Origin: a virus | DNA length: 64,000 nt | Virus record (IMG/VR): IMGVR_UViG_3300006919_000045 | Span: 1 to 64,000 of that record | Direction: 5' to 3' (one strand) | Shown: piece by piece, positions 48,991 through 59,487 of the stretch | How positions within the stretch are numbered: the first letter of the stretch is position 1 | How the letters are laid out: each line of letters opens with the position of its first letter | Notes under the pieces: model-generated | Databases searched by the model: none | What the model was told of the DNA's origin: nothing | Seen by the model: the letters and a program-made list of their open reading frames with translations, nothing else | Translations under genes and position numbers: made by a program

Positions 48991-49094
48991 GAGCGGGGGC
49001 GCTGATAGCTGGCGCATACCTTGTTTATTCCGTCGTCACTGATCTGGCGATCTGGGGCGGCGCGGTTTACTATTATTTCAATGGGGGCTTTTGA
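48987..49094 (+). CDS. 35-aa membrane peptide (MRAGALIAGAY...)
   Basis: Hand-translated; GTGA and TGATG overlaps. Confidence 0.6.
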   Translation: MRAGALIAGAYLVYSVVTDLAIWGGAVYYYFNGGF

Positions 49095-49693
49095 TGAAAG
49101 CACTACAAGCGAAACTCAACCGGCTCGCGGAGAATCTCTCCGCTCCGGTGGCGGTAATTTTAGAGGGGCGTGATACTGCTGGCAAATCCTCGACTATTCG
49201 GGAATTGACTCACTACCTACCGCCCGACCTTTACAGCGTTTGCCTATCGCACAAACCTAGCAAACGCGCAATGGCGGCATGGCTACCCTACTGGGAAACC
49301 AAACTACCAACGCAACCGCGCATCGTGTTTTTTGATCGAAGCTGGTACAGCCGCGCGATGGTTCAACATCTCAACGGATGGTGTACGCCGCGACAATACA
49401 ACAATTTTATGCGGCGTCATAAAAACTGGGAAGCTAATCAGCCGGTGCGCTTGATTAAATTTTGGCTTTCGATTTCGGAACAGGAACAGCAACGCCGAAT
49501 AATTCAACGCAAGCATTCACCGCTCACCTACTGGAAATTTTCGGAGAATGATGAAAACGCACTTTCGCATTATGACCGCATGAGCATTTTAAAAGAGCGC
49601 GTTATTGATTCGGAATGGCACACAATTAATTTCGAAAATAAATCAAAAGGAATTAAAAAATTGCTTGACAAATTATGCGGCGAGCTGGCATAA
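49094..49693 (+). CDS. ppk2: Polyphosphate kinase 2
   Basis: EGRDTAGKS Walker A, FFDRSWY Walker B, IKFWLSIS..EQ and WKFS..D motifs. Confidence 0.92.
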   Translation: MKALQAKLNRLAENLSAPVAVILEGRDTAGKSSTIRELTHYLPPDLYSVCLSHKPSKRAMAAWLPYWETKLPTQPRIVFFDRSWYSRAMVQHLNGWCTPRQYNNFMRRHKNWEANQPVRLIKFWLSISEQEQQRRIIQRKHSPLTYWKFSENDENALSHYDRMSILKERVIDSEWHTINFENKSKGIKKLLDKLCGELA

Positions 49694-49957: not shown

Positions 49958-50460
49958 GGCGCGCTCGCGCCAGTAGTAGTGCGACAGCGAAGTTGCTTAA
50001 AGGTGCAAATTAAGTTGAACAAAAACAGGTACTTAACAGTTAGTCTTTGAAAATTGGCGCGGGGGCGCCAGTAGTAGTGCAACGGTAGTTCAAATGTGGT
50101 GTTGCTTGCGCCATTATAAGTAGTAGTGCAACAAAAGTCAAGTCTTTTTTGCGGGTGTGGTGCAAATTATTTACAATTGTACCAGTCTTCGTGCCAGACC
50201 CCGTGCCCACCCTGGTAGTATACGCGCAAAACGTGGCAATGTCAAGGATTATTTGCAGCAAGTCCCGGGATAATCTTTTAAAAGCGCGGCGCCGATTATA
50301 CAGTAGTAGACCGGCAGTTGTCAAGTACTTTTTGCACAATTGGTGCAAATAAATCGCTTGACAAGTCTCTGCGGGGTAGCATATAATGGCAAATTGTGGC
50401 AAACCTGGGGCAAACAGTGGCAAATTTACGAAAATTTTGGCAGATTAGGTGCAAAAAACA
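49958..50460. repeat. Injection-stop-like repeat array
   Basis: AGTAGTAG(TGC) at 49972, 50070, 50119 and 50302, each near GCGCC; GGTGCAAA four times; GGCAAA four times at ~10-11 bp spacing. Confidence 0.75.
50113..50324 (-). promoter_or_regulatory. Three tandem leftward sigma70 promoters
   Basis: TTGACT-17-TATAAT (50141-50113), TTGACA-17-TATACT (50245-50217) and TTGACA-18-TATAAT (50324-50295). Confidence 0.8.
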
Positions 50461-50557
50461 CTTGACAGCCGAAATTTCGTACGCCGCCCCCCGGAATTCG
50501 CTTGCGTTGGGGTTACGACAAAAAAGATTTGACATTGGGAACCGGAGGTAGTATAAT
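50358..50557 (+). promoter_or_regulatory. Two rightward early promoters
   Basis: TTGACA-18-TATAAT (50358) and TTGACA-17-TATAAT (50529). Confidence 0.85.
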
Positions 50558-50581
50558 ATTTATCAAATCGGAGGAAACTGC

Positions 50582-50770
50582 ATGAACGATATTCAATTTG
50601 AAGCCTTTAGCTTGTACGCAGGTATGCGTATGGACGGTATGTCTAAGCTGGATGCATTTATGTGGACAATAAAGTGTCTGCTTCCAGAGGAAGACTACCC
50701 CAACGGATACGATGATGGTGCAGTAGAGCTGTACTCTTGGTTGCGGCAGAAGGTAAAGCTGGATGACTAA
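50582..50770 (+). CDS. Hypothetical protein
   Basis: GGAGG SD directly after the promoter. Confidence 0.7.
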   Translation: MNDIQFEAFSLYAGMRMDGMSKLDAFMWTIKCLLPEEDYPNGYDDGAVELYSWLRQKVKLDD

Positions 50771-51188
50771 GATTAGAGTAAAAGCAAAAAAGCAATGGTC
50801 TGAGGCTGAGCGACGTTTGGCCCGGGCTGCTGCAGCCTTTGCAACTAACGAACTAGCATTAGATGTAAGTCCGATACCTATTCACATTGTACTAAAGGGC
50901 AGAAACGAACAAGATTTTGGTGACTCTATAGACCTGGGGCATAAAGTTATTGTACGTATTAACAAAAGCCCAAACTGGCTGGGTACTTTATTTCACGAAC
51001 TAGAGCACGCTCGTCAATATGTTTACTGCGAACTTGAGCTAGAAACTGACCATGTTATATGGCGTGGAACACTATCTGCTAGAGATGCGGGCAACTATGA
51101 GGAGTACTGGAAATCTCCTTGGGAAGTGGAAGCAAGGCAAAAAGAAAGAGAATTATTTGCAGCTTTCCAAAAAAATCTCTTGACATAA
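50763..51188 (+). CDS. HExxH metallopeptidase-like protein
   Basis: LFHELEHARQY...PWEVEA. Confidence 0.75.
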   Translation: MTKIRVKAKKQWSEAERRLARAAAAFATNELALDVSPIPIHIVLKGRNEQDFGDSIDLGHKVIVRINKSPNWLGTLFHELEHARQYVYCELELETDHVIWRGTLSARDAGNYEEYWKSPWEVEARQKERELFAAFQKNLLT

Positions 51189-51254
51189 TCCTCAGAACCT
51201 TGTATAATATATTTTCAAAAGTGGTAAAACAAACTAATTTTTCGGGAGAAAAAA

Positions 51255-51578
51255 ATGACTGATATGACTGCAAAGGCTTCGGCCAACTACTCACAAGAGA
51301 TGGTTGAGTTCATCTCTAACTCTTACTCTGCTGCTCCGACTCGTGCTACAGTCGACCAGCTCGCTGAGAAGTTCAGCAAGACTCCACGTAGCATCATTGC
51401 TAAGCTCTCTGCTTTGGGTATCTACCAAAAAGTTGAGCGTGTAACCAAGCGCGGTGAGCCTGTCATTAAGAAGGAAGTCATCGTTGCTCAAGTAGCCGAG
51501 CGACTAGGTCGTGATCTGCCTTCTGTAGGTAAGATGACCAAGGTTGATCTTGAAGCTCTGCTCGAGATCTTGGGATAA
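51255..51578 (+). CDS. A2/D3-like DNA-binding protein
   Basis: NYSQEM...LAEKFSKTPRSIIAKLS..GIY; own promoter (TTGACA 51180) and terminator. Confidence 0.7.
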   Translation: MTDMTAKASANYSQEMVEFISNSYSAAPTRATVDQLAEKFSKTPRSIIAKLSALGIYQKVERVTKRGEPVIKKEVIVAQVAERLGRDLPSVGKMTKVDLEALLEILG

Positions 51579-51582
51579 ATCC

Positions 51583-51603
51583 CGGGGCCTAGTGCCCCGT
51601 TTA
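51583..51603 (+). terminator. Intrinsic terminator
   Basis: CGGGGC-CTAGT-GCCCCG followed by TTT. Confidence 0.7.
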
Positions 51604-51761
51604 CTTAAATACTTCTATGTATATAATATACTGTCGAATTGGAGCTTTAACTCTCGTGCTAAATGCATGGGAAGACTATTGGCTAGCATTTCGAGAAGCG
51701 GAGTCTTTAAATAAACGGGATTACAAGGCGTACTACTTTGTACGTTATAAGGAGAATTTTA

Positions 51762-51974
51762 ATGGCAAAAACAATGATTTTTGATGCCGCTACTACGCGT
51801 GCATACCGTAAAGGACGTTTTCAGGGCAAAAAAGTAATGTCACACGGTGCTTTTCGTGCAAAGCGAAAGCCTAACTCGCCTATCGTTAAGAGAGCGGAGG
51901 CCGTAAAAGCTGCTGCAACCTTTGGAAAAAGTCCTGAGTTCAAGTTCGCTATCTACGGCATTGAGGTAGAGTAA
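51762..51974 (+). CDS. Basic hypothetical protein
   Basis: AAGGAG SD; start revised. Confidence 0.65.
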   Translation: MAKTMIFDAATTRAYRKGRFQGKKVMSHGAFRAKRKPNSPIVKRAEAVKAAATFGKSPEFKFAIYGIEVE

Positions 51975-52159
51975 TGCATCTTGTTCAAGAGCAAGAAGAG
52001 CCAGGAAAAACTAAGTATAGAGTCTATACTAAAAACGGAGCACTAATTTATGTGGGCCATCACGCCGGTGCTGCCCAAGAAATGTACGAAAACGGAGAGC
52101 GGGAGGAGTTAGATGTTAGAAAAACAAGAGAGGCTCGCAGTAGTGGATCGAGCGACTGA
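51974..52159 (+). CDS. Hypothetical protein
   Basis: Coupled ORF with SD. Confidence 0.6.
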   Translation: MHLVQEQEEPGKTKYRVYTKNGALIYVGHHAGAAQEMYENGEREELDVRKTREARSSGSSD

Positions 52160-52352
52160 TACAATAGAAGTAGAAGGTCAACGTATGTCTTTCACAAGCC
52201 TGCAAAGAGTAAAAGATGAGCTGTGGCACAACTGGGCGCTTTCAGAAGCCGAGGTTGACCACGTAATTCGTACAATGTATCAAGAAGGGGAAATTCGTGA
52301 AACCTTTTCTCTTTCTTCCTTTTATCCTTCTACATGGGGAACGAAAATATGA
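52113..52352 (+). CDS. Hypothetical protein
   Basis: GGAG SD. Confidence 0.6.
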   Translation: MLEKQERLAVVDRATDTIEVEGQRMSFTSLQRVKDELWHNWALSEAEVDHVIRTMYQEGEIRETFSLSSFYPSTWGTKI

Positions 52353-52534
52353 GCTGTAACATTACAGAAGTGGATCAAGTGACAATTCAATTTGCTACAA
52401 ATGGGACTGTGCTTGAGTTTAGTGGGCGTATTGACGGAGACTGGTCTACTCGAAAAGAGTTGTTTTTAGTAGGAGATGAAGCTGATTTGTTTGCACGTAT
52501 CGCTGACCTTCAGGTGTGTCACCGTGGAACTTAA
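52349..52534 (+). CDS. Hypothetical protein
   Basis: ATGA overlap with the upstream ORF. Confidence 0.6.
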   Translation: MSCNITEVDQVTIQFATNGTVLEFSGRIDGDWSTRKELFLVGDEADLFARIADLQVCHRGT

Positions 52535-52715
52535 AGAAAGTGCAGAAGCAATAGTATTTTGTATAAGTAGCTTTTGTACTCATGAAGCTGACCTTAAAAA
52601 ATTCGAACCTAAACTTCACATGAACAGTGATGGGTTAGTCTTGGAATATAATGATAAGAGTACAGGACACAAAATGTTTGAAAAAATTTCTGGGCTGAAG
52701 AAAAATAATTCTTGA
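52476..52715 (+). CDS. Hypothetical protein (start uncertain)
   Basis: ORF fills the operon up to the next promoter. Confidence 0.45.
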   Translation: MKLICLHVSLTFRCVTVELKESAEAIVFCISSFCTHEADLKKFEPKLHMNSDGLVLEYNDKSTGHKMFEKISGLKKNNS

Positions 52716-52741
52716 CTTTTAGTTCAAAAACGGAGTATAAT
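52712..52741 (+). promoter_or_regulatory. Promoter of the noncoding unit
   Basis: A-tract, then TTGACT-18-TATAAT. Confidence 0.8.
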
Positions 52742-52747
52742 ATCTTC

Positions 52748-53429
52748 TTAAATGGGGGAAGTCAGGGACGCACAGTACGCCACCGCACTTGCGATAAGAC
52801 AGTAAAGATCCCGGTAAAAGTTAAGCCTATCCGGAGCCCCGACCTAATTTGTTCCGCCTTCGTTGACCCTGCCGTGTACAGGTTGAAAGGCATCGTCCGT
52901 GGGACAAAAGTGCTAATGCGGGATGGCAAAGCACTATAAAAAGTACCATCTTAGTTTAGTGCCACTTAGCGCACTTTTCCCTGTTCGAGGTACTATATCG
53001 AGCCCCCATGTGTACGGGCGGAGGTGCACGACCAGTTATGGCTTTGACACGTTTTCGGATTCTGGTTTAGCAAAAACGAAAAAGAGGTAGGTTGCATCTG
53101 CAGTGCTAACCTAGATACGTGATAGGAGGTAGGTGCGTATCACTACAACTATAGGAGGAAGTCCTTTTTATTATTGGTCTATTATTGCAAAGAGGCGTCG
53201 AAACCCTCGATCATAACGAAAGGCACTATATAGCCTAGTGGCAGTTCGCGGCTTTAAACCTAACTGCGGGTTTATCTACTCAGACCCGCTAACGCTAAGG
53301 GAGTAGGCAACTGACGAGTTGGACAATACGTAGATTTACTCAGTAGCTGCTTGGGAGTCATGCCCCAATGTAGACCTAACAAACGGTAATCGAAGGAATC
53401 CCTGCATAGAAATATGTGGGGATTTTTTT
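52748..53429 (+). ncRNA. Candidate large structured noncoding RNA (~680 nt)
   Basis: Own promoter and terminator, no credible ORF, many helices and at least two pseudoknots. Confidence 0.7.
53397..53429 (+). terminator. Intrinsic terminator
   Basis: AATCCCTGCATA-GAAA-TATGTGGGGATT followed by a T tract. Confidence 0.85.
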
Positions 53430-53449
53430 ATGTGTACAAAAAATTTTCC

Positions 53450-53478
53450 TTGACATTTTTCTTCAGAACCTGTATAAT
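53450..53478 (+). promoter_or_regulatory. Early promoter
   Basis: TTGACA-17-TATAAT. Confidence 0.9.
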
Positions 53479-53501
53479 ATGGATTCTATGGGAGAAACTA
53501 C

Positions 53502-53819
53502 ATGGCAAAAATACTAGAATTTCCAGACAATCGTTCGTTGGAAAGGCAGTTAAAGATACTTACTGATGAACTTGTTGAACTACACGAGACGATGGGTAAG
53601 TTGTACGATAGTCAAGCGGCCTTAGACGGGTTGATCCTGGAAAAAGAAGAAGCGTACTCTAATGTACTAAACAAATACTCGCACGCTATTGGAGCTGAGA
53701 ACATTGCTATCTCGCTACTACAGTTTGCGACCGACCATATTCAAGTGGACTTAGAAACAGGAGATATAAGATATGTCCCGCCAAAAGAGGAAGAGGAGCC
53801 TGATCCGGAAGTGCCGTAA
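53502..53819 (+). CDS. Acidic coiled-coil hypothetical protein
   Basis: SD present; MAKILEFP N-terminus. Confidence 0.7.
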   Translation: MAKILEFPDNRSLERQLKILTDELVELHETMGKLYDSQAALDGLILEKEEAYSNVLNKYSHAIGAENIAISLLQFATDHIQVDLETGDIRYVPPKEEEEPDPEVP

Positions 53820-53994
53820 GTGCGGTAAGGCTTTTAAAGCTGAAATCGACTCCGTGCACTATTGCTCCGTAAATTGTATATCGGCTTCTCACAACCCCGT
53901 TGCTGCTTTTAATCACAATCGCAGCGGGGTCCACAAGCCGAAGAAGGGCAAGGGAAGCTATACAAGAAAAACAAGAAGGAAGAGTTATGAGTAA
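53773..53994 (+). CDS. Zn-finger plus ArfA-motif protein
   Basis: CxxC...CSxxC followed by KKGKGSYTRK. Confidence 0.6.
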   Translation: MSRQKRKRSLIRKCRKCGKAFKAEIDSVHYCSVNCISASHNPVAAFNHNRSGVHKPKKGKGSYTRKTRRKSYE

Positions 53995-54310
53995 TTATTC
54001 GGAGAACGAAACGACTTATATGGTGCAACTGTACCAGGAAACCCCGTGCATGGCTACGGTGGATTTGCTCGTGGAACAATTAAAAAGAAGTAAGAAATCG
54101 ATTATAGGAAAGCTATCACGAGAAGGTGTATACCGAAGGGAGGTGTATGTATCGAAAACTGGAGAGAAACCTATTACAAAAGTGGAAATCGTTTCTCATA
54201 TTGCTGAAGGTTTGGGAGTTGAGGTTTCAGATCTGGCTGGTCTTGAGAAAGCTCCCAAAAACGTCCTTCGAATCCTATCAAAAGCTGCAGCGGGGTCAGC
54301 AATCTCCTAA
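53987..54310 (+). CDS. A2/D3-like DNA-binding protein
   Basis: MSNYSENE...KRSKKSIIGKLSREGVY...KTGEKPITK; clear paralogue of 51255. Confidence 0.7.
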   Translation: MSNYSENETTYMVQLYQETPCMATVDLLVEQLKRSKKSIIGKLSREGVYRREVYVSKTGEKPITKVEIVSHIAEGLGVEVSDLAGLEKAPKNVLRILSKAAAGSAIS

Positions 54311-54439
54311 TGACTAGGGGACAATTCTCGTATATTAGTAGGCTAGCGGAATAAATAAGGGAAAATTTACGAACGAATTGGCGCAAATTTTGAACAGTTG
54401 TTCGCAAATTTAAAAAAGATTTTTACTTAAAGTATTCGT

Positions 54440-54690
54440 TTGGGTCGTATGACCCGTATTATTCTTATTTAATTATCAGGGTCATAGAGATTGGTACAAT
54501 TCACACTTTGCTTTTACGAATGTAGTAGCGGGTTAGTTGCTGACTTAGCATATCTTGTAGACACCCCGTGTATATACCCTGCTCCCGCTAAGGCTCTGCA
54601 GGGTATTTATGCACGAAATAGCTACATTATGCTTACGTCAGCATGTAGTTAGTGAGAATCAGTAGACAGACCTTATTGTCTATCAATTTA
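54440..54690 (-). ncRNA. Candidate structured ncRNA or origin-associated hairpin
   Basis: Minus-strand promoter TTGCTA-17-TAAAAT (54725-54697); ~105-nt nested rod at 54538-54643. Confidence 0.5.
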
Positions 54691-54805
54691 TGATATATTT
54701 TACCACACTTTTTGGCATATAGCAAATACTATTTTTGCCCTGGTCCTGGATTACAGTATCTGAGCAGTGTGAAGTTAACAAAAAAATATTATTTTGGAGG
54801 GTTAG

Positions 54806-54889
54806 GTGGAAGACTATTTGTGGGTAGTAATTGGTTGTATGATTTTAGCAACAGTAAGTAAAGGATGTATTCCTGAAGGTATTATGTAA
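54806..54889 (+). CDS. 27-aa hydrophobic peptide
   Basis: GGAGG SD and GTG start; MEDYLWVVIGCMILATVSKGC. Confidence 0.45.
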   Translation: MEDYLWVVIGCMILATVSKGCIPEGIM

Positions 54890-54921
54890 CATCACAGCAG
54901 TAAGAGCATTCGCATAAAACT

Positions 54922-54946
54922 AAAGGGGCTTCAAGGCCCCTTTTTT
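54922..54946. terminator. Bidirectional terminator
   Basis: AAAGGGGC-TTCAAG-GCCCCTTTTTT between convergent genes. Confidence 0.8.
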
Positions 54947-55125
54947 ATATGACGTACAAATGGAGGGCATTTCGCAAGTATAGGAATATAGAAAGTGTAG
55001 GTAGTGCTATCCCGAGTATCATGATAATTTTTATACACGCAAACTCCAGTGGAGACAACTGAATTTCGATGGTTGTAGATTCCCGTTGCTCCTTCGAGAA
55101 CGAGGTAAAGCCAAAGAACTTCCAA
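54931..55125 (-). CDS. Hypothetical protein
   Basis: Last ORF of the leftward operon; frame choice uncertain. Confidence 0.4.
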   Translation of the reverse strand: MEVLWLYLVLEGATGIYNHRNSVVSTGVCVYKNYHDTRDSTTYTFYIPILAKCPPFVRHIKKGP

Positions 55126-55132
55126 AGGTCTC

Positions 55133-55516
55133 TCACTGGTTTAGAATACTCTCTAAATCTGGGGCGAAAAAGCCCGGGCCTTTCATTACTTTACCGTTGT
55201 CTGCTTTGATTGGTGTTCCATCATCTCCTAACTTACTCATATTAGAAGCATGTACCTCAGTAAAACACTCATCAAGGTCAATACCAAATGTATGACCAGC
55301 ACCGTATACAACATAGAGTATGTCGGTGAGAGCATCGGCGATTTCGACCATATCTTTATTTGCAATCGCTTCAACCAATTCATCTACTTCTTCTTGAATT
55401 AAATCTACTCGTAGTTCACGAGTACTAAAGTCGGGCCAGGTTGGTTGAGTCTCGACCGATTGACCGAAAGCCTGCATGAAATCTCCCACAAGTTCAAAAT
55501 TTGTTCCTTCTATCAT
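55133..55516 (-). CDS. MazG-like/PRA-PH nucleoside triphosphate pyrophosphohydrolase
   Basis: LIQEEVDEL...EIADALTDILYV...EVHASNMSK...GKVMKGP. Confidence 0.9.
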   Translation of the reverse strand: MIEGTNFELVGDFMQAFGQSVETQPTWPDFSTRELRVDLIQEEVDELVEAIANKDMVEIADALTDILYVVYGAGHTFGIDLDECFTEVHASNMSKLGDDGTPIKADNGKVMKGPGFFAPDLESILNQ

Positions 55517-55694
55517 TATCTTTTCTCTTTCGTTTAAATCTTGCGACTGCAGCCTGTTTAGCCAGTCGTCGTTTTTCGCTTCTTGGTACATGATACTCCT
55601 TTTGTTTATAATCCCATAGTGTTTCTGAACATTTTTTCTTGAAAACTCGTAGAGCAGCGTCTACATTGTTGTTACGTACTTTAACTTTTGGCAT
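55494..55694 (-). CDS. rpsU: Ribosomal protein bS21
   Basis: MPKVKVRNNNVDAALRVFKKKC...EY...SEKRR..KQAAV.R; AGGAG SD. Confidence 0.85.
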   Translation of the reverse strand: MPKVKVRNNNVDAALRVFKKKCSETLWDYKQKEYHVPRSEKRRLAKQAAVARFKRKRKDNDRRNKF

Positions 55695-55708
55695 GTATCT
55701 CCTTTTGC

Positions 55709-55879
55709 CTAAAAACTCCAACCTCTTTTACGTAGGTACGCTACTTGTTTGCGTATTGAGTTTTCTGTGCGATGAGGCAATACTTTTTCCTGTAGTTCAC
55801 CTACAGTCATTCCAGAGTAGTGCTCTTTCAACAGTACTCTCTCGCGTATCGACCATGGTCGCTTTGAATATTCTCTCAT
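55709..55879 (-). CDS. Myb/SANT-like HTH protein
   Basis: PWS..E..LL.EHY...LP.RT..SI; start revised, leaderless. Confidence 0.65.
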   Translation of the reverse strand: MREYSKRPWSIRERVLLKEHYSGMTVGELQEKVLPHRTENSIRKQVAYLRKRGWSF

Positions 55880-55886
55880 GACATAT

Positions 55887-55982
55887 ATTATATTCGAACT
55901 GAGCTTCAAAGTCAAGTGATATTTTTAAGAAGAGGTCCATAGAAAAATATTTCTTGACAACATTTTCAAAATCGAGTATAAT
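55887..55982. promoter_or_regulatory. Divergent promoter pair
   Basis: Minus TTGACT-17-TATAAT (55915-55887); plus TTGACA-17-TATAAT (55954-55982). Confidence 0.85.
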
Positions 55983-56020
55983 ATATCCAATAGAAAAATA
56001 AGCTGAAAAAGGAGAATCTC

Positions 56021-56259: not shown

Positions 56260-56676
56260 ATGACTAAGCAATTAGCTATGGCTGACCTACATAAAATTTT
56301 ATTAGGTTTTGACCGTTTCATGGAACCAAATACATTCGCTCCAACCTTAGATGGCGGATACCCTCGATACAATGTGCTAAAAGTCGGAGACAACGGTTTC
56401 CGAGTAGAGTTAGCAGTTCCGGGCTGGAACAAAAATGACATTGAAATTGCTTTACACAAAGGCGTACTTACTGTTATTGGTAATGTAAAGCAAACCGAGG
56501 CGGAAAATGAATCCTATGTCTATAAGGGCCTAAGCGGTAAGTGTTTCACACGGACGTTCGGAGTAAGTGAGCACGTTAAAATTGATCGTGCTTATATGGA
56601 ACGTGGCCTGCTATGCATTGACTTGCATGAAGAAATTCCTAAGGAATTGCAACCAATTAAGGTTACTATTTCATAA
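56260..56676 (+). CDS. Small heat-shock protein Hsp20 (IbpA-like)
   Basis: GFDR...YPRYN...ELAVPG...GVLTV.G...FTRTF...GLLCIDL...P. Confidence 0.93.
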   Translation: MTKQLAMADLHKILLGFDRFMEPNTFAPTLDGGYPRYNVLKVGDNGFRVELAVPGWNKNDIEIALHKGVLTVIGNVKQTEAENESYVYKGLSGKCFTRTFGVSEHVKIDRAYMERGLLCIDLHEEIPKELQPIKVTIS

Positions 56677-57677: not shown

Positions 57678-57825
57678 AGGATACTTTGAACATTTGTCAG
57701 GCGCCTGGAAATTAGCATTTGTATTGCTAGTACACGGGCTTCTACCAAATGTATGGAGAAACAAAGTCAGCGACGAACTGCACAAAGATCAAAAGAAGCT
57801 GCATGGAGTACGAGTCGTTGACTAA
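57652..57825 (+). CDS. DUF6356-like small protein
   Basis: HL.E....YFEH...A....LVH.LLP. Confidence 0.6.
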   Translation: MNHLKETGKGYFEHLSGAWKLAFVLLVHGLLPNVWRNKVSDELHKDQKKLHGVRVVD

Positions 57826-58390
57826 TTATTTTGCAAAGTCGATGACAAAGTTTTTTCGTTTCTTTGCAGATACATTCTTTGCAAAGAGATACGGACACCG
57901 AGCAGTCGTACTTGAAACAGTTGCAGGAGTCCCAGGTATGGTCGCAGGAATGCTTGTACACCTCAAGAGCTTGAGAACACACAAGCGAGGCTATGGCCCC
58001 ATCATACGAAAATTACTTGCAGAAGCAGAAAATGAACGTATGCATCTTATGTTTTTTATCGAAATTGCACAGCCAAATAAGCTGGAGCGGGGTCTCATAA
58101 TTACCGCACAATTTATATTCTGGCACTTTTATTTAGTACTGTACCTAATCTCTCCTCGTACTGCCCATATGATGACGCATTATTTTGAAGAGGAAGCAGT
58201 CAAAAGTTATACAGAATACTTAGATTTAATTTATAGAGAGGAGATAGAAGATGTTCCTGCTCCTCAGTTAGCAATCGAATACTATGGTATGGACGCAGAT
58301 GCACGACTTTCTACGATGGTAAAACACATTCGTGCTGATGAACAAAATCACAGCAAAGTAAACTTGGAGTATGCAAATGTACTCAGATAA
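57818..58390 (+). CDS. aox: Alternative oxidase (ubiquinol oxidase)
   Basis: LETVAGVPGM, EAENERMHL, FEEEAV.SY and RADE..H di-iron motifs; TTG start with GGAG SD. Confidence 0.95.
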   Translation: MTNYFAKSMTKFFRFFADTFFAKRYGHRAVVLETVAGVPGMVAGMLVHLKSLRTHKRGYGPIIRKLLAEAENERMHLMFFIEIAQPNKLERGLIITAQFIFWHFYLVLYLISPRTAHMMTHYFEEEAVKSYTEYLDLIYREEIEDVPAPQLAIEYYGMDADARLSTMVKHIRADEQNHSKVNLEYANVLR

Positions 58391-58778
58391 GGTATTGGAT
58401 CACTATGAAAATCCCAGAAATGTCGGAAAACTTAACGAGAATGATAAAGATGTCGGAACAGGCATGGTCGGGGCTCCAGCGTGTGGAGACGTCATGCGGC
58501 TTCAAATCCGAGTATCGCCCGACGGAATTATTGAAGATGCTAAATTCAAAACTTACGGATGCGGCAGTGCTATTGCTTCTTCATCATTACTCACAGAATG
58601 GGTTCGAGGAAAGTCCCTTGACGAAGCGGGAAAAATCAGCAATGTCCAAATTGCTCAAGACTTATCGCTCCCGCCTGTAAAGATACACTGTAGTGTACTT
58701 GCGGAAGATGCTATCAAAGCAGCCATCACGGATTATAGGACTAAACATGAAAGGAACTACCATGAAAAACAGAACTAA
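58371..58778 (+). CDS. iscU: Fe-S cluster scaffold IscU
   Basis: YSDKVLDHYENPRNVG, APACGD, GCGSAIASSS and LPPVKIHCS. Confidence 0.96.
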   Translation: MQMYSDKVLDHYENPRNVGKLNENDKDVGTGMVGAPACGDVMRLQIRVSPDGIIEDAKFKTYGCGSAIASSSLLTEWVRGKSLDEAGKISNVQIAQDLSLPPVKIHCSVLAEDAIKAAITDYRTKHERNYHEKQN

Positions 58779-59487
58779 ACTCAGCGCTCTTGCACTGTCC
58801 ACCGCTCTCGCCTGTGCGTTCGTACCGACCGCTCATGCAGGGGAATGGTCCGCAAATGCTTCGATGACCAGTAATTACATCTGGCGAGGGCTTACCCAGA
58901 CAGAGAATGAGGCGGCTGTGCAGGGCGGAATTGATTATGCCTCGGACAGCGGCTTTTATATTGGCACCTGGGCTTCCAATGTGAACTATGGCCCCTCCGA
59001 TGTTTACTCTTACGAGCACGACGTATACGCAGGGTTTGCTTTTGATACCGGCGCGGTTAACTGGGACGTTGGTTACCTCTATTACAACTACGACAAAGAA
59101 GCTAACTTTGACTTTGGCGAGGTTTATGTGGGCGCGGGTATTGGTGATTTCAGTGCAAAGCTTAACGTGCTGGCCAATACTGAAGCAGACGAGGCTGAGG
59201 GACAGGATTTTGGGTTCGGCGAGGCGTATTACCTCTCACTGGACTATGGTTTTGAAGTCGGCGACGGTGTGGGTATTGGCCTGCACGTAGGACATCACGA
59301 TGGTGATTTTGCTGAAGCTTTTAACGGTAACGCCGAAGGTTATTACGATTATAACGTAACGGTCTCAAAGGGCGGCTTTACTTTTATGATTTCGGATACT
59401 GATGTAAAAGGTGGAGCTGCAGAGGGTGGATACGATAACGATCAGATCAAATTTGTCGTCTCATACGCTGTTGATATCGCGCTCTAA
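58762..59487 (+). CDS. TorF-family putative outer-membrane porin
   Basis: Signal peptide; SNYIWRG.TQT...AVQGGIDY...GFYIGTWASNV. Confidence 0.88.
   Translation: MKNRTKLSALALSTALACAFVPTAHAGEWSANASMTSNYIWRGLTQTENEAAVQGGIDYASDSGFYIGTWASNVNYGPSDVYSYEHDVYAGFAFDTGAVNWDVGYLYYNYDKEANFDFGEVYVGAGIGDFSAKLNVLANTEADEAEGQDFGFGEAYYLSLDYGFEVGDGVGIGLHVGHHDGDFAEAFNGNAEGYYDYNVTVSKGGFTFMISDTDVKGGAAEGGYDNDQIKFVVSYAVDIAL

What the first reader, a model, noticed from the sequence alone, without database searches (positions are those of the whole stretch)
52712..53429. ~680-nt pseudoknot-rich noncoding RNA with its own promoter and terminator
Seen: a dedicated transcription unit with no credible ORF in an otherwise dense genome. 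Long-range helices: ATGGGGG 52752/CCCCCAT 53003, CAGGGA 52763/TCCCTG 52978, AAAAGTGC 52906/GCACTTTT 52971, TTCCGCC 52852/GGCGGAG 53017, GTTATG 53035/CATAAC 53212, GGTCTA 53176/TAGACC 53371. H-type pseudoknots: GATGG/CCATC interleaved with GCACTA/TAGTGC (52922-52962), and GCGGGT/ACCCGC with loop CTACTC/GAGTAG (53266-53306). Local hairpins at 53050, 53088, 53114 and 53241. tmRNA, RNase P and intron hallmarks were not seen. Inference: a large phage RNA in the GOLLD/ROOL size class, possibly a new class (ribozyme, scaffold or anti-defence sponge).
Basis: partly seen in the sequence, partly recalled or inferred. Interest (0 to 1): 0.88.

Follow-up and report, generated by a model that had tools for sequence, protein, structure and literature searches.

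The report
New large folded marine-phage RNA
An uncultured marine T5-like phage carries a stand-alone early gene for a roughly 680-base, many-helix non-coding RNA that matches no catalogued RNA family, recurs in dozens of related viral sequences and in ocean RNA libraries, and has a hairpin loop that stays self-complementary, so copies may dock onto each other as the known phage RNAs GOLLD and ROOL do.

Summary
Real feature. Window 52712-53429 is a promoter-to-terminator unit on the + strand with no conserved ORF. I collected 34 distinct full-length relatives (442-683 nt) from viral and metagenome contigs. A 16-helix model is 96.5% paired in them, and 26 of its 85 pairs changed on both sides; controls with slid partners give 32-45% and 4-13 pairs.

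Its six long-range helices do not hold.

The family is modular. A near-invariant 5' three-way-junction domain and a core up to P12 are universal; the 3' modules come and go.

The P11 apical loop keeps a palindrome in 7 of 7 loop variants. Kretsch et al. used this same signature for intermolecular kissing loops in GOLLD and OLE.

My best reading is a new family of large phage RNA that probably self-associates. Its function is unknown.

RNA-library contigs identical to the window cover 52839-53371. No cultured phage carries it.

This scan has already found the same family on three other genomes.

The parts
52712..52741 (+). Sigma-70-type promoter TTGACT-18-TATAAT. The inferred start of the RNA is near 52748.
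   Evidence: 11 of 12 consensus positions. Both hexamers are conserved in all aligned relatives. The start site is inferred, not mapped.
52754..52841 (+). Universal 5' domain, a three-way junction. P1 is 52754-58/52837-41, P2 is 52761-63/52798-800, P2a is 52769-71/52791-93, P2b is 52774-76/52787-89 and P3 is 52811-14/52831-34. The joining strand AGUAAAGAU at 52801-09 is invariant.
   Evidence: 21 pairs, 98.0% paired in 28 distinct sequences, 6 pairs changed on both sides, 0 of 500 shuffles reach the covariation score, slid partners 26-46% paired. P3 and P2a never vary, so they are untested. Model R1 scores 106.6 bits on the window. It matched in 10 of 11 further loci.
52819..52827 (+). Variable apical loop of the P3 arm, usually self-complementary (UUAA here; GUUAAC, AGCU or CAUG in relatives).
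   Evidence: 5 of 7 loop variants (32 of 34 sequences) hold a palindrome of 4 nt or more, against a chance of 0.45 per loop. This is suggestive only.
52842..52851 (+). A/U-rich single-stranded linker between the 5' domain and the body.
   Evidence: Alignments. No pairing partner was found.
52852..52904 (+). P4 (52852-57/52899-904) encloses P4a (52861-67/52889-95, with conserved U-U and A-G mismatches) and the variable hairpin P5 (52868-71/52879-82).
   Evidence: P4: 5 of 6 pairs changed on both sides, 97.5% paired (helix 6). P4a: 96.4% paired at its 5 Watson-Crick positions (helix 7). P5 is weak: 5 of 16 distinct segments close end to end by minimum free energy.
52910..52952 (+). H-type pseudoknot. 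S1 is 52910-14/52930-34 and P6 is 52920-26/52946-52.
   Evidence: P6: 7 pairs, 100% paired, 1 pair changed on both sides and 4 changed on one side (helix 9). S1: 97.1% paired but almost invariant, so it is little tested (helix 8).
52958..53029 (+). Hairpins P7 (52958-62/52971-75), P8 (52984-88/52998-53002) and P9 (53010-15/53024-29). In some lineages P8-P9 are replaced by other hairpin modules.
   Evidence: P8: 91.9% paired, 2 pairs changed on both sides (helix 10). P7: 17 of 22 distinct segments fold to the hairpin. P9: 15 of 17.
53031..53066 (+). P10 (53031-35/53062-66), which closes an interior that I did not resolve.
   Evidence: helix 11: 95.3% paired. The outermost pair shows 5 pair types.
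53071..53084 (+). Conserved A-rich single strand, CAAAAACGAAAAAG.
   Evidence: Alignments.
53089..53112 (+). Hairpin P11. Its 9-nt apical loop AUCUGCAGU (53096-53104) holds the palindrome CUGCAG.
   Evidence: 22 of 22 distinct segments fold to one hairpin, median z = -3.3. The loop is palindromic in 7 of 7 loop variants and 34 of 34 sequences (cores CUGCAG, CGCG, CCAUGG, GUUGCAAC), against a chance of 0.38 per loop.
53114..53141 (+). Hairpin P12 (8 bp) with a purine-rich loop, AUAGGAGGUAGG at 53122-33 (Shine-Dalgarno-like GGAGG).
   Evidence: helix 12: 97.0% paired, 3 pairs changed on both sides. There are 15 loop variants, all purine-rich and none palindromic.
53147..53164 (+). Conserved junction AACUAUAGGAGGAAGUCC, holding a second GGAGG. 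The universal core ends here.
   Evidence: Alignments. The shortest members end about here before the terminator (L014, 481 nt; L040, 488 nt; L063, 442 nt).
53175..53213 (+). Accessory module. P13 (53175-79/53209-13) encloses P14 (53192-95/53205-08), whose loop is CGUCGAAAC.
   Evidence: P14: 3 of 4 pairs changed on both sides, 94.4% paired (helix 13). P13 stems differ between lineages (UGGUC/GAUCA, ACAGUC/GACUGU, AAGUAGC/GCUACUU); 10 of 17 distinct segments close by minimum free energy. The module is present in 27 of 34 sequences.
53224..53266 (+). Accessory module. P15 is 53224-28/53236-40. P16 is 53242-46/53262-66, with a conserved 15-nt loop.
   Evidence: helices 14 and 15: P15 92.5% paired; P16 100% paired in the 4 rows where MAFFT aligned both arms, with 1 compensatory change. 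About 20 of 34 sequences hold the module.
53267..53396 (+). Accessory 130-nt 3' module. It includes the pseudoknot GCGGGU/ACCCGC (53266-71/53284-89) with CUACUC/GAGUAG (53276-81/53301-06).
   Evidence: Absent from most relatives. Present in the window, L027, L032, L036 and L059, with a variant form in L043 and L047. Each stem shows one compensatory change.
53397..53429 (+). Intrinsic terminator: a 12-bp hairpin with a GAAA loop, then a U run.
   Evidence: helix 16: 96.1% paired. A different hairpin sequence sits at the same place in the L020, L021, L040 and L057 lineage. Also folded. Not listed by the scan.

Best explanation
The stretch is a stand-alone early gene of an uncultured marine T5-like phage. 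It encodes a roughly 680-nt structured RNA that does not code for protein and acts as RNA. It belongs to a family with no catalogued relatives.

Shown:
- It has its own consensus promoter and intrinsic terminator.
- It has at least 16 helices kept by compensatory change, including one H-type pseudoknot.
- The build is modular: a near-invariant 5' three-way-junction domain, a universal core up to P12, and 3' modules that are swapped or lost between lineages.

Inferred mechanism (my odds about 0.4): the folded RNA self-associates through symmetric kissing loops into a dimer or a higher homo-oligomer, as OLE, ROOL and GOLLD do. The main contact would be the P11 apical loop; the P3-arm and P14 loops may help. 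The near-invariant unpaired stretches and the exposed purine loops would then form the working surface for a conserved host partner that is not yet known.

My odds for the identity alone (a new structured RNA family) are about 0.95.
For: - Transcription unit: promoter; terminator hairpin kept in 34 sequences, with a different hairpin sequence in one lineage.
- Family: 43 full-length copies, 33 distinct, 481-683 nt; with L063 (442 nt) 34 distinct. Pairwise identity is 0.60-1.0, mean 0.75.
- Structure, whole RNA: 85 pairs, 96.5% of 2495 cells paired, 26 pairs and 161 cells changed on both sides, covariation score 0.182. Of 500 shuffles, 0 reach the paired share, the pairs changed on both sides, the cells changed on both sides or the covariation score. 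Slid partners give 32-45% paired, 4-13 pairs and scores of 0.024-0.060.
- Structure, 5' domain: 98.0% paired.
- Strand: many conserved G-U pairs, for example 32 of 34 and 29 of 34 in P12 and the terminator. These would be A-C mismatches on the other strand.
- Not coding: no ORF is kept in place. 480 of 574 indel runs relative to the window are not multiples of 3. Variability by codon phase is 0.185, 0.200 and 0.193.
- RNA libraries: contigs with 0 differences from the window cover 52869-53176 (run X1), 52839-53248 (X2) and 52867-53248 (X3), three runs from three studies.
- Self-association: the P11 hairpin folds in 22 of 22 distinct versions, with varied stems. Its loop core switches between CUGCAG, CGCG, CCAUGG and GUUGCAAC, so it is palindromic in 7 of 7 variants against a chance of 0.38 each. 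When the P14 loop changes, it goes from UCGA to CAUG.
- Precedent: Kretsch et al. (passages read) took exactly such switching between palindromic tetranucleotides as support for intermolecular kissing loops in OLE and GOLLD. Their argument is that adjacent bases cannot pair within one chain.
Against: - The count of further pair types is not above shuffles: 60 against a mean of 63.3, reached by 485 of 500 shuffles.
- The single-sequence fold is no more stable than shuffles (z = -0.18).
- The sequences are related, so the shuffle counts are not probabilities.
- Five helices (P5, P7, P9, P11, P13) could not be counted on a common alignment, because MAFFT shifts their register. They rest on per-sequence folds, and P5 is weak.
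- Of ten loops tested, only P11 is clearly above chance. The P3-arm loop (5 of 7 against 0.45) and P5 (6 of 12 against 0.34) are not. The P11 variants represent perhaps four or five independent events.
- Some P11 loops can close further within the chain; for example AUUCGCGGU folds down to a triloop.
- No oligomer has been observed, and no partner or phenotype is known.
Confidence: 0.5

Rival explanations
1. Ribosome decoy. The abundant RNA presents Shine-Dalgarno-like GGAGG elements, in the P12 loop and the junction at 53147-64, to the anti-SD end of 16S rRNA. In this way it holds or re-programmes 30S subunits. It would be part of a phage translation-takeover module together with the nearby phage bS21 and the ribosome-rescue genes.
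For: - In 33 variants GGAGG occurs 49 times against 19.2 expected from dinucleotide shuffles, and GGAAGG 24 times against 6.5. The complementary CCUCC is not enriched (11 against 13.4), so these elements have no obvious internal partner.
- The P12 loop is purine-rich in all 15 variants.
- bS21 lies at 55494-55721 on the minus strand (Pfam PF01165, 39.7 bits against a cut-off of 27). It is found in 26 of 51 related loci, mostly those with enough flank held.
- An ORF at 53773-53994 has a sub-threshold ArfA match (22.5 bits against 25.5).
- Related phages carry a permuted tmRNA.
- Kretsch et al. cite pull-downs of ribosomes with GGLLD's relative GOLLD, and a proposal that OLE sequesters RpsU, which is bS21 (passages read).
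Against: - About 14 of 34 sequences have GGAAGG instead of GGAGG in the P12 loop, which is a poorer SD.
- The synteny may only reflect collinear genomes of close relatives.
- The variants are related, so the enrichment counts are not independent.
- No binding test exists.
Confidence: 0.12
2. Precursor of separate RNAs. The primary transcript is cut in the A/U-rich linker after P1. This releases a tRNA-sized 5' domain RNA of about 90 nt, and a body of 450-590 nt with a job of its own.
For: - The 5' domain is an autonomous, closed three-way junction.
- It is followed by a conserved A/U-rich single strand.
- Its sequence is far more conserved than the rest: 58 invariant columns in the 135-column alignment A3, where the window's piece is 103 nt.
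Against: - No RNA end has been mapped.
- The only hint comes from missing contig cover.
- This reading is compatible with the best explanation and does not exclude it.
Confidence: 0.15
3. Ribozyme. The near-invariant junction strands of the 5' domain form a catalytic core, either self-cleaving or acting on a host RNA.
For: The unpaired stretches AGUAAAGAU, GGUAAAAG and GCCUAUCC are strictly invariant across 34 sequences, while the stems around them vary.
Against: - No match to any ribozyme family in Rfam, even at E up to 10.
- No hammerhead, twister or HDV-type core was seen by eye.
- Invariance fits a protein- or ligand-binding site equally well.
Confidence: 0.07
4. Not an RNA gene. It is instead a cluster of small ORFs, a long leader of the next gene, or a DNA-level element with palindromes, such as an origin or a protein-binding array.
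For: - ORFs of 55 and 27 aa exist in the window.
- A GUG four bases after the GGAGG of the P12 loop opens the 27-aa frame at 53133-53216.
- The stretch holds many DNA palindromes.
Against: - The ORFs differ in place and length between variants. One-base indels fall inside the 27-aa frame between close relatives: UAUCACUACAAC, UAUCACUUAUAAC and UAUCAUUCAAC.
- A terminator and a fresh 12-of-12 promoter (53450-53478) separate it from the next gene.
- Two-sided compensatory changes and conserved G-U pairs point to selection on one RNA strand.
Confidence: 0.03

Closest known systems
ROOL RNA (Rfam RF03087, accession as given)
   Same: - A large phage-encoded RNA of about 500-700 nt with many helices and pseudoknots, no known protein partner and no known function.
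- ROOL assembles through kissing loops into an octameric cage (Kretsch et al., passages read). Here one loop shows the palindrome-switching signature of a symmetric kissing loop.
   Different: - No match to the ROOL model in the window or in 8 related loci.
- There is no tRNA in the 72.5-kb contig, whereas ROOL often lies near tRNA islands.
- The host is probably an alphaproteobacterium and the phage a lytic T5-like one, not a prophage of the rumen or Firmicutes type (the latter recalled).
- Oligomerisation has not been observed.
GOLLD RNA
   Same: - A large phage RNA, some members from marine metagenomes.
- It is built of one universally conserved half and one variable half.
- It has self-interacting kissing loops that covary between palindromes (passages read).
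   Different: - No Rfam match.
- The polarity is reversed: GOLLD has a conserved 3' region and a variable 5' region, whereas here the 5' domain is conserved and the 3' modules vary.
- This RNA is smaller, and there is no tRNA next to it or inside it.
OLE RNA
   Same: - A structured RNA of about 600 nt that dimerises through a palindromic loop which covaries GGCC/GAUC/AGCU.
- It has been proposed to bind RpsU, which is bS21. Here a phage bS21 gene lies 2 kb away.
   Different: - No Rfam match.
- OLE is a chromosomal RNA of extremophilic Firmicutes with the dedicated Oap proteins (recalled). None of these is present here.
HIV-1 dimerisation initiation site type kissing hairpin (recalled)
   Same: A 9-nt apical loop that carries a central 6-nt G/C-containing palindrome flanked by unpaired bases, as in the P11 loop AUCUGCAGU.
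   Different: It is one element of a viral genome, not of a phage RNA gene. This is an analogy of mechanism only.

Membership tests
ROOL | Match to the Rfam covariance model at its gathering score | tested here: not met
   0 matches in the 64-kb window. No ROOL match at E up to 10 in 52500-53600. Nothing on the RNA gene in any of 8 related loci.
ROOL | Lies in prophages or phages, often near tRNA islands (Kretsch et al.) | tested here: not met
   It is in a phage, but there are 0 tRNA genes in the window and in the whole 72.5-kb contig.
ROOL | Forms an RNA-only octameric cage | not testable with these tools
   Only an indirect sign of self-pairing is available.
GOLLD | Match to the Rfam covariance model | tested here: not met
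   no match.
GOLLD | Universally conserved 3' region and less conserved 5' region | tested here: not met
   The opposite holds here: an invariant 5' domain and optional 3' modules.
tmRNA | tRNA-like domain plus tag reading frame, as found by ARAGORN or Rfam | tested here: not met
   None in the window. The same tools do find a permuted tmRNA elsewhere in relatives, so the tools work on this material.
RNase P RNA | Match to the bacterial RNase P models, including the conserved P4 core | tested here: not met
   No match at gathering score or at E up to 10. The GGAAGUC-like words that I noticed are chance resemblances recalled from memory.
CsrB/Rsm-type protein sponge | Many hairpins (seven or more) that each present GGA in the loop (recalled) | tested here: not met
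   GGA is only 1.24 times the shuffled expectation (362 against 292.3 in 33 variants). Only the P12 loop and one junction present it consistently.
Symmetric kissing-loop homo-oligomer (works like, not a family) | An apical loop whose internal bases change between different palindromes across relatives (criterion of Kretsch et al.) | tested here: met
   P11: 7 of 7 loop variants are palindromic, with four different cores. P14 has 2 cores. The P3-arm loop has 4 cores in 5 of 7 variants.
Symmetric kissing-loop homo-oligomer (works like, not a family) | Oligomer seen in solution | not testable with these tools
   Needs a native gel, mass photometry or cryo-EM.

The most novel reading that the evidence does not exclude
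The RNA is the structural heart of a phage translation-takeover device. Copies join through their palindromic loops into a multimeric shell or lattice. The exposed Shine-Dalgarno-like loops of that assembly capture host 30S subunits, or the phage's own bS21. It would work together with the neighbouring phage bS21 and with the ribosome-rescue genes: an ArfA-like ORF here, a permuted tmRNA in sister phages. This would give the first function for a GOLLD/ROOL-like RNA assembly.
Probability: 0.08. Interest if true: 0.92.

Novelty: new variant of a known kind. Interest (0 to 1): 0.7.

Why it matters
Very few large non-ribosomal structured RNAs are known. The phage-borne ones, GOLLD and ROOL, were recently shown to form RNA-only cages whose purpose nobody knows.

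A third, unrelated family would show that such RNAs are a recurrent phage invention. This one comes from lytic marine T5-like phages that probably infect Alphaproteobacteria, and it is present in RNA libraries of several ocean studies.

It also has useful properties for experiments. The shortest member is only 442 nt. The build is clearly modular. One loop offers a simple test of assembly: break the palindrome, then restore it. Its gene neighbourhood (bS21, ArfA-like ORF or tmRNA) suggests where to look for a partner.

Tried and rejected
KNOWN FAMILIES
- Rfam at gathering score on the whole window gave 0 matches.
- Rfam at E up to 10 on 52500-53600 gave 7 chance-level matches. The best was 20.2 bits against a gathering score of 54.
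- Rfam on 8 related loci matched only tmRNA elsewhere in those loci.
- ARAGORN found nothing in the window or the contig.
- While reading I noticed resemblances to RNase P CR-I, to the tmRNA 5' end and to a class II tRNA. No tool supported any of them, so I dropped them.

RELATIVES IN CULTURED PHAGES OR GENOMES
- blastn in distant mode against 50,697 phage records: no match.
- Model R1 on Vibrio phage vB_ValS_X1 and on T5: 0 matches.
- The conserved downstream protein (106 aa) by tblastn against phage records: no match.
- The exact two-block pattern in 185,579 prokaryote genomes: 0 matches.

THERMODYNAMIC STABILITY
- z = -0.18 on the + strand and -1.63 on the - strand. This says nothing for structure or for strand.

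OTHER PAIRINGS
- CAGGGA 52763 with TCCCTG 52978: one position covaries in one lineage (G-C to A-U, 6 sequences each), but 14 of 32 cells at that pair are unpaired.
- I found no consistent change for these three pairings in the alignments: the P8 loop with the CUAUAG junction, the P12 loop with CCUAUC of the 5' domain, and a GAAA-receptor-like CCUAA/UAUGG pair.
- Short MAFFT alignments of P11 and of P13-P14 shift register between lineages, so no common column structure could be counted.

- No contig of the 4 runs laid covers the 5' domain at 52748-52838.
- Contigs begin at 52839 (X2), 52867 (X3) and 52869 (X1, there joined to adapter-like letters), and at 52860 and 52871 (X6).
- None reaches the terminator.
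- In X1 the contigs on the RNA body have depths of 255, 200 and 168. The exact-match contigs on the two flanking ORFs have depths of 10.2 and 2.
- The tool warns that contig depth cannot rank genes and that a hole proves nothing. I therefore treat this only as a lead for processing after P1 and for high abundance.

LITERATURE
- Searches found no paper on this RNA.
- Fremin et al. 2023 (PMC10690425, passages read) predicted 8,495 unnamed candidate structured RNAs from IMG/VR intergenic regions.
Full report
WHERE IT LIES
- The window is bases 1-64000 of a 72,514-base IMG/VR virus record, classed as linear and about 70% complete.
- Its large terminase is about 50% identical to those of T5-like phages (Demerecviridae) of Vibrio, Yersinia and others. 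It also has an HK97-type portal and a prohead protease.
- The right part of the window is a block of small rightward genes with many perfect sigma-70 promoters. In 50000-56000 there are 20 promoter-like sites, against 11.2 +/- 3.9 in shuffles. I recall T5 early regions as having this look.
- Related contigs carry a permuted tmRNA of the alphaproteobacterial type. The host is therefore probably an alphaproteobacterium.

THE UNIT
- A TTGACT-18-TATAAT promoter lies at 52712-52741.
- About 680 bases follow without a conserved ORF.
- A 12-bp hairpin with a U run lies at 53397-53429. Twenty bases later comes a 12-of-12 promoter for the next gene.
- The terminator scan did not list the hairpin. The fold and the comparison do show it.

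RELATIVES
- Flanking proteins and exact DNA patterns brought in viral and metagenome contigs.
- From these I extracted 43 full-length copies, 33 of them distinct (481-683 nt). With L063 (442 nt) that makes 34 distinct.
- Pairwise identity runs from 0.60 upward, with a mean of 0.75.
- Promoter and terminator are kept in all.
- The flanking proteins have diverged far more. The downstream 105-aa protein is 27-36% identical in several lineages whose RNA 5' core is letter-identical.
- The pattern occurs in none of 185,579 prokaryote genomes. The RNA occurs in no deposited phage record.

NOT CODING, AND ON THE + STRAND
- The longest + strand ORF ranges from 23 to 114 aa and starts at different places in different variants.
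- 480 of 574 indel runs relative to the window are not multiples of three.
- Column variability shows no three-base rhythm.
- Conserved G-U pairs, the promoter and the terminator all fix the strand.

THE FOLD
- RNAalifold on 12 sequences gave a first sketch. I refined it with a pair-by-pair scan of my own and by eye on the alignments.
- Counted on the MAFFT alignment of 34 sequences, which was not fitted to any structure, the 16 helices that align in register have 85 pairs. Of 2495 cells, 96.5% are paired. 26 pairs and 161 cells changed on both sides. The covariation score is 0.182.
- None of 500 shuffles reaches the values for cells paired, pairs changed on both sides, cells changed on both sides or the covariation score. 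Partners slid by 1-3 columns give 32-45% paired, 4-13 pairs and scores of 0.024-0.060.
- One measure, further pair types, is not above shuffles (60 against 63.3).
- The 5' domain alone gives 98.0% paired.
- Five more hairpins (P5, P7, P9, P11, P13) differ in length or register between lineages, so I judged them by folding each distinct version. The numbers that close are: P11, 22 of 22; P9, 15 of 17; P7, 17 of 22; P13, 10 of 17; P5, 5 of 16.
- The single-sequence energy is unremarkable.

- Counted in the same way, the six long-range helices are 60.3% paired. Their covariation is no better than that of slid partners.
- The comparison assigns other partners to these strands.

ARCHITECTURE
The family is a mosaic.
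- Universal parts:
  - a closed three-way junction at 52754-52841, with invariant unpaired strands;
  - an A/U-rich linker;
  - P4 to P12, including the S1/P6 pseudoknot;
  - an A-rich strand;
  - the junction that ends at 53164.
- Within this core, whole hairpin modules are exchanged between lineages. For example, the S1/P6/P7 block is replaced in the L010 type, and P8-P9 exist in two forms.
- Downstream, P13-P14 are present in 27 of 34 sequences, P15-P16 in about 20 of 34, and the 130-nt module at 53267-53396 in 5, with 2 more holding a variant form.
- The 130 nt that first looked like an insertion unique to the window are therefore a recurrent module.

SELF-COMPLEMENTARY LOOPS
- Of ten apical loops, P11 stands out. 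All 7 loop variants (34 of 34 sequences) hold a palindrome, with four different cores, while the stem below varies freely.
- Shuffled loops do so 38% of the time. That gives roughly 0.001 before allowing for ten loops tested and for relatedness.
- The P14 loop changes once, from one palindrome to another. The P3-arm loop shows four palindromes in 5 of 7 variants.
- The P12, P2b and P9 loops are not palindromic.
- Kretsch et al. used the same criterion for OLE and GOLLD (passages only).
- This is the basis for my mechanism. It is an inference, not an observation.

OTHER LEADS
- GGAGG-type words are 2.5 times over-represented and lack a CCUCC partner.
- A phage bS21 gene and an ArfA-like ORF (sub-threshold) lie within 2.3 kb.
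- Sister phages carry a permuted tmRNA instead of the ArfA-like ORF.
- These facts feed the ribosome-decoy rival and the novel case. They could also be mere neighbourhood in collinear genomes.

RNA LIBRARIES
- 24 runs from 15 studies hold some of the sampled words of the stretch, and 19 of them are on record as RNA.
- I laid four. Contigs without a single difference cover 52839-53371 in pieces.
- What the contigs do not cover, and their depths, are told under Tried and rejected, as the tool requires.

COMPARISON AND NOVELTY
- In size, in phage origin and in the loop signature the RNA works like GOLLD, ROOL and OLE. It fails the membership tests for each of them.
- I found no paper on it in four searches. 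The closed supplements of PMC10690425 may list fragments.
- This scan has already reported the same family on three other genomes, with the same verdict.
- My additions are: the formal rejection of the long-range helices; the modular map; the loop statistics with internal controls; the likely alphaproteobacterial host; and the ribosome-related neighbourhood.

Noticed in passing
L010 13327-13780 (+), L013 5227-5680 (-), L063 4472-4927 (-), L047 1710-2005 (-): Related marine T5-like phage contigs carry a permuted (two-piece) tmRNA of the alphaproteobacterial type, with tags ANDDIYALAA, ANDDVYTLAA and ANDDIYQLAA. It lies 2-4.5 kb downstream of the large RNA gene on the same strand. ARAGORN finds it in 8 of 16 loci, some of which are the same contig held twice. 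Rfam tmRNA_permuted and alpha_tmRNA find it in 4 of 8 loci. The window's contig has none. Phage-borne two-piece tmRNAs in marine phages are in print (PMC9004378, seen in the listing and abstract only).
   Followed up: partly
window 53773-53994 (+): A 73-aa ORF with a CxxC zinc ribbon and a C-terminal match to ArfA (PF03889, 22.5 bits, below the cut-off of 25.5). It is found in 9 of 51 related loci. In this sample it is never found in a locus that also holds the tmRNA. The two may be alternative ribosome-rescue devices of one phage group.
   Followed up: partly
window 55494-55721 (-): A phage-encoded ribosomal protein bS21 (PF01165, 39.7 bits). It sits next to a MazG/PRA-PH pyrophosphohydrolase at 55133-55591. 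It is syntenic in 26 of 51 related loci.
   Followed up: partly
window 49091-49693, 56260-56676, 57749-58390, 58693-59487 (+): Auxiliary genes in the early block: PPK2 polyphosphate kinase, an HSP20 small heat-shock protein, an alternative oxidase (AOX) and a Gcw_chp outer-membrane-type protein.
   Followed up: no
window 54360-54900: Another stretch of about 500 bp without a credible ORF lies between 54310 and 54931, with a bidirectional terminator-like hairpin at 54922-54943. Other first-stage notes flag it as a second structured element. I did not examine it.
   Followed up: no
5' leader of the RNA in L010, L012 and L020-type relatives (alignment A3, columns 7-25): About half of the family (16 of 28 distinct 5' ends) has an extra 5' hairpin of about 20 nt before P1. 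Its stems differ between lineages (GGUGAG..UCACC, GUC..GAC, CUUGG..CCAAG). The window lacks it.
   Followed up: no
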